From: a virus
Taxonomy: Duplodnaviria > Heunggongvirae > Uroviricota > Caudoviricetes
IMG/VR virus record: IMGVR_UViG_2671181100_000005
Direction: 5' to 3' (one strand)
DNA length: 9,275 bases
The notes under the pieces were generated by a model, which saw only the letters and a program-made list of their open reading frames with translations, was not told the origin of the DNA and searched no databases. Shown here one piece after another: positions 3,709 to 7,617 of the stretch. The translations under genes and the position numbers were made by a program. Numbering within the stretch: the stretch's first letter is position 1; every line of letters starts with the position of its first letter.

Positions 3709-3905
3709 CCTTCACCTGTTCACCTTTTGATATTTTATCTTTTAATTCATAATGTTAAGGGGTGAACAGTTTCACAAAAACTATTCACCAACTGTTCACC
3801 ACTGTTCACNNNNNNNNNNNNNNNNNNNNNNNNNNNNNNNNNNNNNNNNNNNNNNNNNNNNNNNNNNNNNNNNNNNNNNNNNNNNNGTGAACAGTGGTGA
3901 ACAGT
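3709..3905. repeat. Iteron array of octamer TGTTCACC / GGTGAACA (P4 ori/crr-type), candidate replication origin
   Basis: Exact octamers at 3717..3724 and 3793..3800 (TGTTCACC) and 3761..3768 and 3896..3903 (GGTGAACA). Gap-truncated copies at 3803..3809 and 3887..3893, plus degenerate copies (3709..3716, 3783..3789). Sits immediately downstream of the primase-helicase gene. Confidence 0.6.
3810..3886. other. Run of 77 N (unresolved or masked sequence) inside the iteron region
   Basis: Directly visible in the sequence. Flanked by a perfect 19-nt inverted repeat (3791..3809 ACTGTTCACCACTGTTCAC; 3887..3905 GTGAACAGTGGTGAACAGT). Confidence 0.95.
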
Positions 3906-3917
3906 TATTCCATAAGT

Positions 3918-5735
3918 TTAATTTTTGCTATCGTCATTAGTGACCGATACACATGATGGCATCCAGTCTTCTGATTCCTCCGTCAGTGTCACGTTTGAAC
4001 GCAAACCGTGCTTCGTTTTCCGTTTCATATACTCCCTGCCATATTCCGCCATTGCCCCCGGCATATCTTTACCGAAGCGCGTCAGTGTTACAGGTTTACC
4101 AAACCCATGTGCCTTCATATAAGCCAGATAGGCATGATAGAGATACCTGCGCGGGCTGAATGGCACAATTTCAGCATTACCCACTAACAGGCCATCACAC
4201 ATTACCGACGCCATGAGATAGCCGCAGAAGTCCACCAGCGAATCACCTTCACGCTTTATCGCGAGTGCTTCTTCTGATTTCTGCTGCTCATATAAAAGGC
4301 GTCTGGCTTCGTCCTGGTCAGCAAACCGTGTAAGCAGATGACGAATCACTACCGCCAGCTCACCTTCTATTTTTTCCGCCAGCATTGAATCGCGTTCGTT
4401 CTCCGGTACAACTTCCGAAAAATTGAATATCACCCGACGTCGCGAGATCCCCCCACTGCGGTCACTGAATGACATAGCGTTATTGTTAACCGCCAGCACT
4501 ACTGCCGGGATACGCGTTGAATATGGGGCTTTATGTTTTGGGTCGATTGCCACCTTGTCACCGCCTGTAATAGCCTTAATTCCCGCCCCATCACCAGCGT
4601 AGCGGGTCATATCCGGCATGATAATCAGCGAAAAGCCAACCACTAACGCGCGTTCCCTTGCATCTTCCAGCGCCTTCATGCTCGCTGATACTGTATTAGC
4701 CTTACCCGCCAGCATGGTGCAAATCTCCGCCATCACGCTTTTACCACTTCCCCCTGGACCTGTTACCTCAATGAATAACTGCCAGTCGTACCGGTTCGCC
4801 AGCACCATGAATAATGCAGCCAGTACGCGATCCGCCTTGCGGTCATTCTCAGCCACCGAACGGCGTAACCACTTCCAGAAATTCGGCGCATGTGTTGCCA
4901 GCGTTTCCCCCTCTGCTGGTGGGCTGAAAGGTAATTCACTGGCAATTAACAACCAGTCGTTTTTGTTATGCTCCCGAAAATTACCTGTTCTGGTATCAAA
5001 TACCCCGTTACTGAATCCAATCAGGTTACGGGCTGTATTCCCCATAACAGGCAAACTTAACTTCATGGTATCGACCGCCGATTTAATGGCGTTCTGCGAA
5101 TAGCTGATCTCCGCATCAATGAAAATCTGTGCCATAGCTCGCTGTAATTCTTTATCCTGTACTGGCTCCCATACAACGCCGTTGTAATGGTGAACAGTGT
5201 CAGAGTCAGCATGAATCGCCAGTTCACCGCCATAATGTGCCAGGAGAACTTCGCCGCGTTGACTTGCTCCCATCTGGTTAAGCGCCAGTGATGAAGCGTT
5301 ATCGTCTTTTACCCGCTCTTTTTTCTTTACAGGCAGTTCAACTACCTTTTTCTTTTCCGCCTGCTCTGCCCGTTCACGTTCCAGATATTCGCGCCAGTTC
5401 TCCCGTTTCTGGCTGTGCATTCCTTCAGGGTAATAATCAGCATCCCTGACACCTGCCGCTGCCAGTTTCTGCCCGATGGTATTAACAAGCCCCGGACGCA
5501 ATAACCCCGCCTGGTAGAGACGCACGCGATAGCGTCCGTCCGGTACGATTTGCAGGTTGTCCAGTTCGGCAAGTTGTTGCTCTCCAAGCCAGACAGGTGG
5601 CACGTTATCGCCAGCCAGTCGCCCGTCCTGTTCCTGCCACTGCTTCGCATGTGCCCACGCATCACTACCCGCAAAAATGATGACTTCCGTCATTTTGTCA
5701 CGCGGCTGGTGTTTTAAATTTGGCGCTTTTTTCAT
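3918..5735 (-). CDS. Replication protein: primase-like N-terminal region fused to an SF3 (D5 / P4 alpha-type) helicase
   Basis: Walker A motif VTGPGGSGKS with a downstream hydrophobic-acidic Walker B-like stretch. Size and position match a satellite pri/alpha gene, followed by its iterons. Start set at ATG 5735, which overlaps the upstream ORF stop (ATGA); the track ORF starts 15 nt further upstream at 5750. Confidence 0.88.
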   Translation of the reverse strand: MKKAPNLKHQPRDKMTEVIIFAGSDAWAHAKQWQEQDGRLAGDNVPPVWLGEQQLAELDNLQIVPDGRYRVRLYQAGLLRPGLVNTIGQKLAAAGVRDADYYPEGMHSQKRENWREYLERERAEQAEKKKVVELPVKKKERVKDDNASSLALNQMGASQRGEVLLAHYGGELAIHADSDTVHHYNGVVWEPVQDKELQRAMAQIFIDAEISYSQNAIKSAVDTMKLSLPVMGNTARNLIGFSNGVFDTRTGNFREHNKNDWLLIASELPFSPPAEGETLATHAPNFWKWLRRSVAENDRKADRVLAALFMVLANRYDWQLFIEVTGPGGSGKSVMAEICTMLAGKANTVSASMKALEDARERALVVGFSLIIMPDMTRYAGDGAGIKAITGGDKVAIDPKHKAPYSTRIPAVVLAVNNNAMSFSDRSGGISRRRVIFNFSEVVPENERDSMLAEKIEGELAVVIRHLLTRFADQDEARRLLYEQQKSEEALAIKREGDSLVDFCGYLMASVMCDGLLVGNAEIVPFSPRRYLYHAYLAYMKAHGFGKPVTLTRFGKDMPGAMAEYGREYMKRKTKHGLRSNVTLTEESEDWMPSCVSVTNDDSKN

Positions 5736-6031
5736 TTCTGCTCTCTCCACGCGGCAATCATGTTTTTCAGTTCCTGTAGTTTTTTATCCACATCCACACG
5801 TGACACATGGTTATTTCTGGAAGTCGGGATTTCCCGCCGGAATCTGCAAATAAAGATCTCCACGTTCAGCGAACTAAGAAATGAATAGCCATCACGGATA
5901 AAATACACACGGTCAAACATCAGTTCTTTTACCGTTACTCTATTACCGTTCTTATCCAGATAAATAGCGCCGGGGATAATTTGGGGGTGTGCATAACCGC
6001 TGGCAGTCAAGCCAGATAAATACGTTCTCAT
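5732..6031 (-). CDS. Hypothetical protein (99 aa), coupled to the primase gene
   Basis: Stop overlaps the primase start (ATGA). GGGGA lies about 9 nt upstream of its ATG. No recognisable motif. Confidence 0.55.
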   Translation of the reverse strand: MRTYLSGLTASGYAHPQIIPGAIYLDKNGNRVTVKELMFDRVYFIRDGYSFLSSLNVEIFICRFRREIPTSRNNHVSRVDVDKKLQELKNMIAAWREQK

Positions 6032-6037
6032 GATTAT

Positions 6038-6358
6038 TTATCCCCGATTTGAATCAGTATTCGCTTTCTTTATAGCATTTAATGCATCTGTGGCATTTTT
6101 AATGGTGCACCGTAACGAAATATCAAAATGTCCAAGCATTGCCAGTAACAAACCGATATTACCCATATCAATGCGCATGGCCTTTTCGTCATAGTCCTCA
6201 TTTTCTGACGCATGCCACATCAGGCTACCAATTGACGCAACAGCCATTGATATATTGTCAGTAGCCCCATCCGCAGCGGAATAAACCTTTTTAGCAATAT
6301 CATGCTCACAGTTAAAATGCGGATTAATCAGGTACTGGTAATTTGACATATCAGGCAT
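6038..6358 (-). CDS. Hypothetical protein (106 aa)
   Basis: ATG at 6358 overlaps the stop of the upstream 67-aa ORF (ATGCCTGA). RBS AGGGGG is present. Stop lies 6 nt before the next ORF. No recognisable motif. Confidence 0.55.
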   Translation of the reverse strand: MPDMSNYQYLINPHFNCEHDIAKKVYSAADGATDNISMAVASIGSLMWHASENEDYDEKAMRIDMGNIGLLLAMLGHFDISLRCTIKNATDALNAIKKANTDSNRG

Positions 6359-6554
6359 GGCACACCCCCTGACGAATACGGGCGGCGAATACCATCACGC
6401 AGCCAGCCGGGGATTGCTGGCGTGCTTCCTGTTCGCTGGTGGCCACGATGTGAATCACGCGCGGTTGTGCGGTGCTCAGGGCGATAAAACGCCAGATGTA
6501 TTTATTCAGGTTGTACGAGTCCCGCCCTTGCGGGTGTATGGTATGATTTCTCAT
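6351..6554 (-). CDS. Hypothetical protein (67 aa), first gene of the minus-strand operon leading into the primase
   Basis: This is the last 67 codons of the 348-aa track ORF, starting at ATG 6554 with GAGG 5 nt upstream. The upstream part of that ORF is low-complexity and antisense to a better plus-strand gene. Confidence 0.45.
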   Translation of the reverse strand: MRNHTIHPQGRDSYNLNKYIWRFIALSTAQPRVIHIVATSEQEARQQSPAGCVMVFAARIRQGVCHA

Positions 6555-6697
6555 AGCTGCCTCGATAATCTTGCTATCGTTGGTGGTTAGAAGCCCCGTT
6601 ACTGCTCCTACAGTGCGGGGTTTCGTCGTTTCTGCACCTTGCATTAACAAGGTGTAAGCAACTTTATTTATAGGTGGCTTACATGTCAATGCTTTTA

Positions 6698-6729
6698 TGT
6701 AAGACTTTTTATGTGTATATTGTCTTACA
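6698..6729. promoter_or_regulatory. 8-bp inverted repeat (TGTAAGAC ... GTCTTACA) in the divergent promoter region; candidate operator
   Basis: TGTAAGAC at 6698..6705 and GTCTTACA at 6722..6729, 16 bp apart, overlapping a TATATT -10-like hexamer (6716..6721) about 30 bp upstream of the 6751 start. Confidence 0.35.
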
Positions 6730-6750
6730 CTTTCATTGAGAGGATTACAG

Positions 6751-7056
6751 ATGGCTACAGGTTCAAAAAACGCAAAATCACAATCACTGACAGCTCGGAT
6801 CCCGCATGATGTTATTGAAGGCATGGAATCCGTAAAACTGGACGGTGAAAGCAACGCCGGATTCATAGTAACCGCCATGCGCGGTGAAATCGCCCGCCGC
6901 CAGGCAGAAGGAAGCGGAGAAAACCTCCTGGTTTCTTCGCTCGATGCCCTAGCGCAGGTGGAAAAAATCGGAGTCAAAGCCGCCGAGGAGATCGGGCAAC
7001 TCGTCACCGTCGCGCGTGAAGAACTCCAGCGACGCAAGGTCAAAGAGCAGGAATAG
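6751..7056 (+). CDS. Small DNA-binding-like protein, possible ribbon-helix-helix regulator (101 aa)
   Basis: ATG at 6751 with GAGAGGA 7 nt upstream. N-terminal SLTARIPHDVIEGMESV resembles RHH (CopG/Arc-like) beta-strand-helix starts; the C-terminus is predicted helical and charged. Divergent from the minus-strand operon. Confidence 0.5.
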   Translation: MATGSKNAKSQSLTARIPHDVIEGMESVKLDGESNAGFIVTAMRGEIARRQAEGSGENLLVSSLDALAQVEKIGVKAAEEIGQLVTVAREELQRRKVKEQE

Positions 7057-7113
7057 CCACTATCAGCGCCATAGTTTGAGGAACGCAGGCGCATTGCTTT
7101 ACAGGACAGCACC

Positions 7114-7293
7114 ATGAGCGACACAGAATCAACCAAAACACCATCACCAACTCGTAAGAGACGACGCAAAAATATAGCGCATGAACATGAATCAGAAAGA
7201 TTCGCACCTTGTTCGTTTGCTCTTGAGAAATTCCTTAAAGAGCACAGGAAAAAGCTCTCGTTGCAAACCTTGGAACGAACCAAATCTGACTGA
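7114..7293 (+). CDS. Small basic protein (59 aa), hypothetical
   Basis: Hand-translated ORF MSDTESTKTPSPTRKRRRKNIAHEHESERFAPCSFALEKFLKEHRKKLSLQTLERTKSD, below the track's 60-aa cutoff. AGGA lies 7 nt upstream. Followed by a strong terminator hairpin. Confidence 0.35.
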   Translation: MSDTESTKTPSPTRKRRRKNIAHEHESERFAPCSFALEKFLKEHRKKLSLQTLERTKSD

Positions 7294-7358
7294 TCACATT
7301 GCCCACCAGCCGCAAATGTGGCATTGTTGGTGATGCGTTCAAGTTTAGTGTGTATCCA

Positions 7359-7386
7359 TTGGCGACCGCCCCCGGTCGCCTTTGTT
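7359..7386 (+). terminator. Rho-independent terminator (plus strand), between convergent genes
   Basis: GGCGACCG (7359..7366), loop CCCC, CGGTCGCC (7371..7378), then TTTGTTTT. Confidence 0.6.
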
Positions 7387-7407
7387 TTATATGTCATATG
7401 CTCCCCT

Positions 7408-7617
7408 TTACGCTGCCTTACCTGAATTAATGCGATCCCGGCTTTTAACCCATTCCATAACCTCGGACAGCAGCCAACCTACAGAACGCCCACCAAGATT
7501 ACGGCGAGACGGAAAGCTCCCTTTTTTCTCCAGTTCGTAGCGTGTAGTGCGACACACTCCAGTTAACTTACGACATTCATCCTCACGGATTACGCGATCT
7601 TCATTTATTTCACGCAT
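7408..7617 (-). CDS. alpA: AlpA-family phage regulatory protein (transcriptional activator / excision regulator)
   Basis: RVIREDECRKLTGVCRTTRYELEKKGSFPSRRNLGGRSVGWLLSEVMEWV is a typical AlpA HTH. Start set at the internal Met (MREINED..., 70 aa, the usual AlpA size). The track ORF extends to 7704 through an AT-rich stretch that looks more like promoter than coding sequence. Confidence 0.8.
   Translation of the reverse strand: MREINEDRVIREDECRKLTGVCRTTRYELEKKGSFPSRRNLGGRSVGWLLSEVMEWVKSRDRINSGKAA

What the first reader, a model, noticed from the sequence alone, without database searches (positions are those of the whole stretch)
5732..6554. Three translationally coupled small ORFs (67, 106 and 99 aa) leading into the primase gene
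Overlapping stop-start junctions (ATGCCTGA, a 6-nt gap, ATGA) indicate a single operon ending in the replication gene. None of the three has a motif I can recognise. In P4 this position holds small helper-manipulation genes such as the anti-repressor epsilon, so these are candidates for derepression or interference functions.
Basis: inference. Interest (0 to 1): 0.55.

Follow-up and report, generated by a model that had tools for sequence, protein, structure and literature searches.

The report
P4-style early operon of a satellite
The three small overlapping genes are real and lead the replication operon of a common E. coli phage satellite; the operon is built like phage P4's left operon, with a Kil/Icd-type toxic leader gene, a swappable orphan gene and an RgdR-type gene, so it is mostly ordinary apart from one odd long open frame.

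Summary
On the minus strand, ORFs of 67, 106 and 99 aa (6554-6351, 6358-6038, 6031-5732) are joined by ATGCCTGA, a 6-nt gap and ATGA into the primase/helicase gene (5735-3918). RefSeq calls the same genes, and pN/pS is 0.22-0.41.

The window is an EcCICFT073-type PICI satellite inserted between clpS and cspD.

- ORF1 belongs to the Icd/Kil family (NF033153, 71 bits; 37% identity to P1 Icd; P4 Kil matches the same model).
- ORF3 is an RgdR-family DUF4222 protein without the RGD motif.
- ORF2 is an orphan acidic, probably helical protein. It sits in a slot that holds at least seven unrelated small-gene families in sister islands. This is the position, with the same 8-nt overlap, of P4 epsilon, but there is no homology to epsilon.

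ORF1 is also the end of a 348-codon frame that starts 10 nt after alpA and runs antisense through the divergent ylcI gene. The frame is stop-free in most sister islands, but its peptide is not conserved. P4's nested kil/eta has the same design, and there translation blocks Rho termination.

The claim that no motif is recognisable does not hold, and a derepression role is untested.

The parts
6351..6554 (-). ORF1, 67 aa: Icd/Kil-family small protein. It is the first ORF downstream of the internal promoter.
   Evidence: NF033153, 71.2 bits against a cut-off of 25. phrog_6196, E=1e-42. 37% identity to P1 Icd over 43 aa, E=6e-7. 92% identity to the EcCICFT073 copy. P4 Kil matches the same model, and hhalign gives E=3e-4. 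pN/pS 0.41.
6351..7397 (-). Eta-like long open frame of 348 codons that ends in ORF1. Its ATG lies 10 nt after the alpA stop (taaAGGGGAGcatATG), and it runs antisense through ylcI.
   Evidence: The Icd frame has 0 stops between the alpA stop (or the ~340 nt upstream of ylcI in CFT073, where alpA was not in the locus) and the Icd ATG in 8 of 11 E. coli islands. The other two frames carry 1-12 stops per segment. The 600 nt upstream of the Icd ATG are also stop-free in E. ruysiae and Klebsiella loci. The peptide is not conserved, and substitutions show no codon periodicity (32/37/41). In the P4 control, the kil frame is open for 217 codons and starts at ATGATGATG over the vis stop.
6038..6358 (-). 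ORF2, 106 aa: orphan acidic (pI 5.1), probably all-helical protein in the variable slot, which is the position of P4 epsilon.
   Evidence: Only phrog_15327, of unknown function. 15 hits among 1.84 billion representative proteins. No Pfam, NCBIfam, PADLOC or PDB hit. AlphaFold2 pLDDT 63.6, helical. Present (at least 80% of the gene matched) in 474 of 5426 E. coli genomes. pN/pS 0.22.
5732..6031 (-). ORF3, 99 aa: DUF4222 / RgdR-family small basic protein. Its stop overlaps the replicase start (ATGA).
   Evidence: PF13973, E=9e-17. 33% identity over the full length to CFT073 C1493, an RgdR orthologue. It occupies the same position in all 11 islands examined. It has PGA where RgdR has RGD. pN/pS 0.27.
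3918..5735 (-). Pri-Rep replicase (D5_N, DUF5906 and Pox_D5 helicase domains).
   Evidence: Pfam hits. phrog_864, DNA primase, E=2e-192. RefSeq names it 'DNA primase family protein'.
6661..6689 (-). Sigma-70-like promoter, TTGACA-17-TAAAGT. It gives a leader of about 100 nt before ORF1.
   Evidence: Found by the promoter scan. The -35 TTGACr and the -10 TAnAGT are conserved across diverged alleles.
6593..6621 (-). Conserved leader stem-loop about 40 nt upstream of the ORF1 start.
   Evidence: Three base pairs show compensatory changes. 93% of cells are paired, against 31-42% with slid partners. The leader fold has z=-3.55.
6563..6579 (-). Leader hairpin CGAUA-N7-UAUCG, abutting the GAGG Shine-Dalgarno sequence of ORF1.
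   Evidence: The stems are invariant and the loop varies among 11 distinct sequences.
6653..6729 (.). Two TGTAAG-N19/20-CTTACA inverted repeats (6653-6683, over the -10 element; 6698-6729). They are candidate operators in the divergent promoter region.
   Evidence: Found by the repeat search. Other island alleles carry their own motif repeated three times at the same places.
6751..7056 (+). Divergent ylcI/ynfO-family gene, a candidate repressor, embedded antisense in the long frame.
   Evidence: NF041551, 71 bits. RefSeq CDS. A divergent small gene at this position in all 11 islands, 10 of them annotated YlcI/YnfO.
7408..7617 (-). alpA-family HTH gene, the probable true start of the operon.
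   Evidence: PF05930, E=5e-16. RefSeq CDS. AlpA activates EcCICFT073 genes (PMC6092414).

Best explanation
The three ORFs are real genes. They form the promoter-proximal part of the early (regulation and replication) operon of an EcCICFT073-type phage-inducible chromosomal island (PICI). That operon is built like the left operon of satellite phage P4.

**ORF1 (67 aa)** is the counterpart of P4 kil and P1 icd.
- It is a small protein that is probably toxic or blocks cell division.
- It is the first gene translated from an internal promoter (-35 at 6689).
- It is nested at the end of a 348-codon frame that starts just after alpA.

**Proposed mechanism.** When a helper phage switches on AlpA, transcription from the alpA promoter crosses about 850 nt of DNA that is antisense to ylcI. 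Ribosomes translating the stop-free frame protect this RNA from Rho-dependent termination, as shown for P4 eta. Overlapping stops and starts then pass ribosomes on to the 106-aa gene, the DUF4222 gene and the replicase.

**ORF2 (106 aa)** is one allele of a hypervariable slot equivalent to P4 epsilon. It most likely acts on a helper-phage or host protein.

**ORF3 (99 aa)** is an RgdR-family small basic protein that binds DNA non-specifically. It is made together with the replicase.

**Shown:** the ORFs, the junctions, the family matches, the synteny, the open frame and the purifying selection.

**Inferred:** coupling, protection from Rho, toxicity, and the roles of ORF2 and ORF3.
For: **Junctions and ribosome-binding sites.** These are read directly from the sequence.

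**Family matches.** NF033153 for ORF1 and PF13973 for ORF3.

**Links to P1 and P4.**
- ORF1 is 37% identical to P1 Icd. P1 icd overlaps ant1 by 4 nt and is annotated as 'required for expression of ant'.
- The P4 'cI ORF' carries the Icd-like domain (73.9 bits). Its last 65 codons are kil. kil overlaps epsilon by 8 nt.
- P4 eta starts at ATGATGATG, which overlaps the vis stop.
- PMC10111431, citing Forti et al. [quoted passage not shown]

**Conserved architecture.** In 11 E. coli islands the order is a divergent small gene (annotated YlcI/YnfO in 10 of the 11), then Icd-like, then 1-4 variable small ORFs, then DUF4222, then the replicase.

**Open frame.** The Icd frame has 0 stops between alpA and Icd, against 1-12 stops per segment in the other frames. 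The extension shows no amino-acid-level constraint.

**Other evidence.**
- pN/pS is 0.22-0.41 for the three ORFs.
- AlpA activates EcCICFT073 genes downstream of alpA.
- The only C>G stretch of the operon RNA lies inside ORF1.
Against: - There are no expression data for this island. The promoter is a consensus match only, found at a frequency no higher than in shuffled sequence.
- Pairwise BLAST between ORF1 and P4 Kil finds nothing. The link rests on a shared HMM and a weak hhalign hit (probability 39%).
- P4's immunity RNAs (C4/CI and isrK/seqA) are absent here, so control must differ from P4.
- Within ylcI itself, the lack of antisense stops is not significant once the YlcI protein sequence is fixed (P=0.12-0.79).
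- In F11 and ETEC1748, antirepressor genes separate alpA from ylcI and the frame is not open all the way. In STEC307 the Icd frame carries 4 stops inside ylcI and 15 between alpA and ylcI.
- Structure predictions for ORF2 and ORF3 are of low confidence.
- No function has been tested for any of the three proteins.
Confidence: 0.6

Rival explanations
1. One reading: all three are helper-manipulation genes of the P4 epsilon type. They would derepress a helper prophage or interfere with helper growth.
For: - The 106-aa ORF occupies exactly the epsilon position, directly after the kil/Icd gene with an 8-nt overlap.
- That slot holds at least seven BLAST-unrelated families of small, mostly acidic proteins among 11 islands. 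This pattern is expected of genes that track diverse partners.
Against: - There is no similarity to epsilon. Pfam PF25738 does not hit, and hhalign gives E=0.4.
- ORF1 and ORF3 belong to other families: Icd/Kil and RgdR/DUF4222.
- In EcCICFT073 the helper phage induces the island through alpA, not the reverse.
- tblastn finds no relative of the 106-aa or 99-aa proteins in 50,697 phage records.
Confidence: 0.2
2. ORF2 and ORF3 are replication accessory proteins of the Pri-Rep replicase, for example an origin-binding or helicase-loading factor. ORF1 is only a leader peptide.
For: - DUF4222 directly precedes the replicase in all 11 islands (ATGA start/stop overlap read in the window, a 4-nt overlap in the annotated coordinates of most others; 3-nt gap in IrN).
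- RgdR binds DNA without sequence specificity.
- The 106-aa gene and the 'PGA' allele of DUF4222 travel together in 7 of 7 islands.
Against: - The identical DUF4222 protein (WP_001261502.1) precedes a D5-type primase in the window but a DUF927-type replicase in strain C 237-04.
- DUF4222 also occurs in a lambdoid prophage next to excisionase, far from any replicase.
- RgdR and C1493 act in trans on the LEE island and on motility.
- The middle slot is too variable for a core replication factor.
Confidence: 0.15
3. The operon front is an abortive-infection or 'programmed cell death' module. A phage protein triggers the locus, and the Icd-like protein kills or arrests the cell to exclude the phage.
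For: [quoted passage not shown] All six linked genes, including a primase, are needed.
- P4 kil is lethal when over-expressed.
Against: - Identity of the ECOR61 locus with this island type could not be checked.
- There is no PADLOC hit.
- The same phenotype is expected from ordinary satellite induction, since uncontrolled EcCICFT073 replication itself harms the cell.
- This reading overlaps with the best explanation rather than excluding it.
Confidence: 0.25
4. There is no separate 67-aa gene. The only product is the 348-aa protein read from the ATG at 7397, and the short CDS is an annotation choice.
For: - The frame is open in 8 of 11 islands and in two other genera.
- Many database entries are 97-118 aa long.
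- A strong SD plus ATG follows the alpA stop.
Against: - The GAGG-N5-ATG of the short form is invariant, and a conserved promoter lies only 100 nt upstream, inside the long frame.
- The extension is neither conserved nor codon-periodic.
- P4 makes both the nested forms.
- P1 Icd is a free-standing 73-aa protein.
Confidence: 0.15

Closest known systems
Left operon of satellite phage P4 (vis - eta with nested kil - epsilon - orf151 - orf106 - alpha)
   Same: - An alpA-family gene comes first.
- It is followed at once by a long ORF whose last ~65 codons are an Icd-like 'kil' with its own SD and ATG.
- The next gene overlaps kil by 8 nt.
- Small ORFs then lead into a D5-type primase/helicase.
- In P4, translation of kil/eta prevents premature termination (PMC10111431, citing Forti et al. 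1999).
   Different: - There is no C4/CI or isrK/seqA RNA here, whereas P4 scores 74.9 and 60.8 bits.
- The long frame has no Ash domain. Instead it runs antisense through a divergent ylcI gene.
- Epsilon, orf151 and orf106 (DUF5375) are replaced by an orphan 106-aa protein and a DUF4222 protein.
- The late genes are capsid, decoration protein and TerS, not sid, delta and psu.
immI operon of phage P1 (c4 - icd - ant1/ant2)
   Same: A small Icd protein (37% identical over 43 aa) is the first ORF and overlaps the next gene. The P1 record annotates it as needed for downstream expression and as a cell-division inhibitor.
   Different: P1 icd is controlled by the C4 antisense RNA and leads to an antirepressor, not to a replicase. 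It is not nested in a long frame.
EcCICFT073, the model Gram-negative PICI of E. coli CFT073
   Same: - The gene order is the same: YlcI (divergent), Icd-like (92% identical), small ORFs, DUF4222 (C1493), primase, SSB, capsid and decoration protein.
- AlpA activates genes downstream of alpA.
   Different: - CFT073 has four small ORFs in the middle slot, none related to the 106-aa protein.
- Its DUF4222 is only 33% identical and carries the RGD motif.
- It uses a different integration site.
RgdR (ECs1581) of cryptic prophage CP-933C / O-island 51 in E. coli O157:H7
   Same: It is a 99-aa DUF4222 protein encoded on a P4/PICI-like element. The N-terminal SGLTASG motif and the basic C-terminal helix are shared.
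   Different: - Identity to the tested orthologue C1493 is about 33%.
- PGA replaces RGD at residues 20-22.
- Activation of the LEE type III secretion genes and repression of motility have not been tested for this allele.
ECOR61 prophage 'superinfection exclusion' locus (Silas et al., bioRxiv 10.1101/2023.04.06.535777)
   Same: [quoted passage not shown] The Icd-like protein is needed for growth arrest.
   Different: Its trigger (phage orf24) and its exclusion role are known only for that locus.

Membership tests
Icd/Kil family (NCBIfam NF033153; P1 Icd, P4 Kil) | Match to the family HMM above its curated cut-off | tested here: met
   71.2 bits against a cut-off of 25, residues 19-62. P4 Kil scores 73.9 bits on the same model.
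Icd/Kil family (NCBIfam NF033153; P1 Icd, P4 Kil) | Direct sequence similarity to a characterised member | tested here: met
   P1 Icd: 37% identity over 43 aa, E=6e-7. P4 Kil: found only by profile (hhalign E=3e-4, probability 39%). BLASTP finds nothing.
Icd/Kil family (NCBIfam NF033153; P1 Icd, P4 Kil) | First translated ORF of an early operon, with its stop overlapping the next gene's start | tested here: met
   ATGCCTGA here. GTGCGTAA in P4. A 4-nt overlap in P1.
Icd/Kil family (NCBIfam NF033153; P1 Icd, P4 Kil) | Inhibits cell division or kills the cell when expressed | not testable with these tools
   Known for P1 Icd (record annotation), for P4 Kil and for the ECOR61 homologue. Not known for this protein.
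P4-type nested kil/eta anti-termination design | The kil-like ORF is the end of a longer frame that begins at the stop of the alpA/vis homologue | tested here: met
   Frame 7397..6351 has its ATG 10 nt after the alpA stop, preceded by AGGGGAG. The frame is stop-free in 8 of 11 islands. P4 control.
P4-type nested kil/eta anti-termination design | Translation of the frame prevents Rho-dependent termination | not testable with these tools
   There are only indirect signs. Openness is kept without sequence conservation, and one C>G stretch lies inside ORF1.
P4-type nested kil/eta anti-termination design | Immunity RNA (C4/CI) and its seqA target inside the frame | tested here: not met
   No C4 or isrK match at E up to 10. 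The P4 positive control is found at 74.9 and 60.8 bits.
RgdR / DUF4222 (Pfam PF13973) | Match to PF13973 above the gathering score | tested here: met
   60.9 bits against 27, residues 17-67.
RgdR / DUF4222 (Pfam PF13973) | RGD tripeptide at residues 20-22, which is important for T3S activation | tested here: not met
   PGA at residues 20-22.
RgdR / DUF4222 (Pfam PF13973) | Activates LEE1 / type III secretion and represses motility | not testable with these tools
   Shown for ECs1581 and C1493 only.
P4 epsilon derepression protein (Pfam PF25738) | Sequence membership | tested here: not met
   PF25738 does not hit any of the three ORFs, whereas P4 epsilon scores 170 bits. hhalign of the 106-aa family against epsilon gives E=0.4.
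P4 epsilon derepression protein (Pfam PF25738) | Gene position directly downstream of kil, overlapping its stop | tested here: met
   The 106-aa ORF shows the same 8-nt overlap geometry.
Gram-negative PICI (EcCICFT073 type) | int, alpA, pri-rep and a packaging/capsid module in one direction; about 10-15 kb; inserted at a specific chromosomal site | tested here: met
   The order is int, alpA-type HTH gene, Icd-like to primase, SSB, capsid, decoration protein, HTH gene and TerS, lying between cspD and clpS. The layout matches CFT073.
P4-like satellite | sid, delta and psu late genes, and CI RNA immunity | tested here: not met
   RefSeq lists capsid, decoration protein and TerS instead. There is no C4 RNA.

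The most novel reading that the evidence does not exclude
EcCICFT073-type PICIs may keep P4's nested kil/eta anti-termination device but have turned 'eta' into a pure spacer ORF. In this reading, roughly 280 codons have only one selected property: they contain no stop codon. Ribosomes could then escort AlpA-driven transcripts through DNA that lies antisense to a divergent repressor-like gene (ylcI). That gene would replace P4's immunity RNA. Head-on transcription and translation across ylcI would at the same time silence it, which would give a commit switch. Within that operon, the slot after the Kil/Icd gene would be a swap site for helper-specific effectors, the 106-aa protein being one of them.
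Probability: 0.35. Interest if true: 0.65.

Novelty: new variant of a known kind. Interest (0 to 1): 0.45.

Why it matters
About 30% of complete E. coli genomes carry this Icd-like operon front, yet how Gram-negative PICIs are kept silent and then switched on is not settled. PMC6092414 calls the existence of a repressor 'unclear'.

Reading the region as a P4-type kil/eta operon gives concrete, testable parts.
- A toxic leader gene whose translation gates replicase expression.
- A candidate repressor (YlcI) with allele-specific repeats in the divergent promoter region.
- A variable slot that may hold helper-specific factors.
- An RgdR-family protein, a family already linked to virulence regulation in EHEC.

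It also suggests that the 'Icd-like programmed cell death' locus of ECOR61 may simply be satellite induction.

Tried and rejected
**RNA searches**
- Rfam on the whole window and on 6480-6780 found no C4, isrK or other credible family.

**Searches in phage and genome collections**
- tblastn of the three proteins against 50,697 phage records gave one weak Icd hit and nothing for the 106-aa or 99-aa proteins.
- The genome-contig scan with the Icd alignment returned only 4 loci, because the search pattern was narrow.
- The search for homologous proteins returned only close relatives.

**Searches in annotated libraries**
- PDB sequence search: nothing.
- PADLOC: nothing for any of the three ORFs.

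**Structure**
- AlphaFold2 models were weak, with pLDDT 63.6 for the 106-aa protein and 48.9 for the 99-aa protein. Folds were therefore not used as evidence.
- Foldseek against viral structures gave no match below E=0.85.
- The afdb50 library was unavailable.

**Remote homology of the 106-aa family**
- hhalign against the 'HTGE' middle-slot family and against P4 epsilon found no relation.
- The similarity of the 106-aa protein to eukaryotic TPR repeat proteins was rejected as score inflation from repeats.

**Open-frame test**
- Synonymous-codon resampling of ylcI asked whether codon choice avoids antisense stops. It was not significant per gene. The argument for the open frame therefore rests on the non-ylcI segments and on the conserved frame offset.

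**Literature**
- Forti et al. 1999 (PMC94026) is not held. It is cited through PMC10111431, and the P4 sequence was checked directly.


Full report
**What is there**

The window is 100% identical to E. coli chromosomes such as CFS3313. There it is a roughly 10-kb island between clpS and cspD. All genes but one are on the minus strand. In order they are:
- an integrase (9275-8037);
- an alpA-type HTH gene (7617-7408);
- a divergent ylcI/ynfO-family gene on the plus strand (6751-7056);
- the three ORFs of the finding;
- a D5-type primase/helicase (5735-3918);
- a small ORF, SSB, a lambda-E-type major capsid protein, a head decoration protein, an HTH protein and TerS.

This is the layout of EcCICFT073, the model Gram-negative phage-inducible chromosomal island (PICI), which I found at the start of locus L003 (PMC6092414).

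**Check of the observation**

The three ORFs and their junctions are exactly as described.
- 67 aa (6554-6351), stop/start overlap ATGCCTGA.
- 106 aa (6358-6038), then TAA, six bases, ATG.
- 99 aa (6031-5732), then ATGA into the primase.

Each start has a purine-rich Shine-Dalgarno (SD) ribosome-binding site 5-10 nt upstream. RefSeq calls the same CDSs.

The genes are conserved as genes.
- Pooled pN/pS is 0.41, 0.22 and 0.27.
- The Icd-like gene is in 1652 of 5426 complete E. coli genomes.
- The 106-aa gene is present in 474 of them, each match covering at least 80% of the gene; in CFS3292 the CDS is cut short by an IS1.

**ORF1 (67 aa)**

ORF1 is not motif-free. It matches NCBIfam NF033153, 'host cell division inhibitor Icd-like', at 71 bits against a cut-off of 25. 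It is 92% identical to the EcCICFT073 copy and 37% identical over 43 residues to phage P1 Icd.

In P1, icd is the first ORF of the immI operon and overlaps ant1 by 4 nt. The P1 record annotates it as a division inhibitor 'apparently required for expression of ant'.

The old 'cI ORF' of P4 (8584-8168) carries a Phage_ASH domain followed by the same Icd-like domain at 73.9 bits. Its last 65 codons, preceded by GGAGG, are P4 kil. hhalign of my Icd alignment against Kil gives E=3e-4, but BLASTP sees nothing.

**The long frame**

In the window, the ORF1 reading frame is open for 348 codons from an ATG at 7397. That ATG lies 10 nt after the alpA stop and is preceded by AGGGGAG. The frame crosses the 196-bp divergent promoter region, the whole of ylcI in antisense, and the 350 nt between ylcI and alpA.

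In 8 of 11 E. coli islands, the Icd frame has no stop between the alpA stop (or, in CFT073, the ~340 nt upstream of ylcI) and the Icd ATG; these islands carry different ylcI and alpA alleles. The other two frames carry 1-12 stops per segment. The 600 nt upstream of the Icd ATG are also stop-free in E. ruysiae and Klebsiella loci.

The peptide encoded by the extension is not conserved between alleles. Substitutions there show no codon periodicity in that frame (32/37/41). A 59-aa ORF on the opposite strand (7114-7293) does show third-position excess (11/9/19). What is kept, therefore, is openness and not sequence.

Inside ylcI itself, the absence of antisense stops is not significant once the YlcI protein is fixed. 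However, the frame offset between ylcI and icd is the same in 10 of 11 islands.

P4 shows what this design is for. Its kil frame is open for 217 codons and begins at ATGATGATG, which overlaps the vis stop. PMC10111431, citing Forti et al. [quoted passage not shown]

I infer the same anti-polarity role here. The only C>G stretch of the operon RNA lies inside ORF1, which is a weak hint of a Rho-binding site.

**What differs from P4**

P4's immunity RNAs are easily found in P4 (C4 at 74.9 bits, isrK at 60.8 bits) but are absent from the window. In their place the island has the following features.
- A divergent ylcI gene.
- A conserved sigma-70-like promoter (TTGACA-17-TAAAGT, 6689-6661).
- Two TGTAAG-N19/20-CTTACA inverted repeats, one over the -10 element. 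Other alleles carry their own thrice-repeated motif at the same places.
- A structured leader, consisting of a stem-loop at 6621-6593 with three compensatory pairs and an invariant-stem hairpin abutting the SD.

YlcI as repressor is an inference. Linkage alone could explain why the repeats vary together with the ylcI allele.

**ORF2 (106 aa)**

ORF2 has only a PHROG of unknown function. It has 15 relatives among 1.84 billion representative proteins. It has no Pfam, NCBIfam, PADLOC or PDB hit. The AlphaFold2 model is of low confidence and all-helical, with no fold match.

Among 11 islands, the slot between Icd-like and DUF4222 holds one to four small ORFs from at least seven BLAST-unrelated families, nearly all acidic. 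This is the position of P4 epsilon, the helper derepressor, with the same 8-nt overlap onto kil. There is no sequence relation to epsilon.

The 106-aa gene always travels with the 'PGA' allele of DUF4222 (7 of 7 islands), whatever the ylcI, alpA or replicase allele.

**ORF3 (99 aa)**

ORF3 matches DUF4222. It is 33% identical along its whole length to CFT073 C1493, which Flockhart et al. showed to be a functional orthologue of RgdR. RgdR is the 99-aa regulator from CP-933C that activates LEE1, represses motility and binds DNA non-specifically.

The RGD tripeptide is PGA here. A DUF4222 gene directly precedes the replicase in every island examined (a 4-nt start/stop overlap in the annotated coordinates of most; a 3-nt gap in IrN). 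However, the identical protein precedes a D5-type primase in the window and a DUF927 replicase in another strain. This argues against a replicase-specific accessory role.

The published RgdR phenotypes are LEE1 up, motility down and Congo-red binding up. They resemble relief of H-NS silencing. That is my own inference and is untested.

**Verdict**

The element itself is common and its genes are annotated, so the finding as given is of moderate interest. The stop-free spacer frame running antisense through ylcI is the unusual part. I found no description of it in the papers I could search, but that search covers only open-access text.

Noticed in passing
window 6351-7397 (-); L003, L005, L007, L009-L015: The Icd reading frame stays stop-free for 160-375 codons (695 in the Klebsiella locus) upstream of the annotated 67-aa start, running antisense through ylcI up to the alpA stop. 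The other two frames carry 7-17 stops per 600 nt. The encoded peptide is not conserved.
   Followed up: yes
window 6653-6683 and 6698-6729: Two TGTAAG-N19/20-CTTACA inverted repeats lie 45 bp apart in the divergent ylcI/icd promoter region. Sister islands with other ylcI alleles have their own thrice-repeated motif at the same places (for example GTGGGCCACACC in CFT073 and GTGGCTGACACC in IrN). These are candidate allele-specific operators.
   Followed up: partly
window 6593-6621 (-) and 6563-6579 (-): The leader of ORF1 contains a stem-loop with three compensatory base-pair changes across alleles, and a hairpin with invariant stems and a variable loop that abuts the Shine-Dalgarno sequence. 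No Rfam family matches either.
   Followed up: partly
window 7114-7293 (+): An unannotated 59-aa K/R/E-rich ORF lies downstream of ylcI on the plus strand. It shows third-codon-position excess of substitutions (11/9/19). CFT073 has an annotated 57-aa hypothetical gene at the same place (L003 243-416). It is followed by a terminator-like hairpin at 7361-7380.
   Followed up: partly
L002 = NZ_CP148328.1 (10,790-bp circular record): A 'plasmid' of strain Z1323HEC0475 carries the same int-alpA-ylcI-Icd-106-DUF4222-primase module (100% identical over 5600-6800), joined to a different late module (ClpP-capsid fusion, tail genes). It looks like an excised, circular satellite assembled as a replicon.
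   Followed up: no
L012 3382-3681 versus window 5732-6031: The identical DUF4222 protein (WP_001261502.1) is followed by a DUF927-type replicase in strain C 237-04 and by a D5-type primase in the window. Modules are therefore exchanged right at the ATGA junction.
   Followed up: partly
L021 588-1285: In strain CFS3292 an IS1 sits between the 106-aa gene and the DUF4222 gene. The 106-aa CDS is shortened to 309 nt.
   Followed up: no
L016 4215-4643 and L017 3996-4361: Variants of ORF1 exist. In STEC307 an Ash domain is inserted between the MRNHT... N-terminus and the Icd core, giving an Ash-Icd fusion like P4 Eta (phrog_29966). In ETEC1748 a second, diverged Icd-like segment precedes the core.
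   Followed up: partly
window about 3800-3890: A run of masked or unknown bases (translated as X) lies between the primase gene and the next small ORF. This is where PICI replication origins are reported to lie, so the origin could not be inspected.
   Followed up: no
window 3918-5735 (-), residues 1-145 of the replicase: The N-terminal ~145 residues of the 'primase' match only phrog_2850 (unknown function). Pfam detects the D5_N and helicase parts, but no primase catalytic domain.
   Followed up: no
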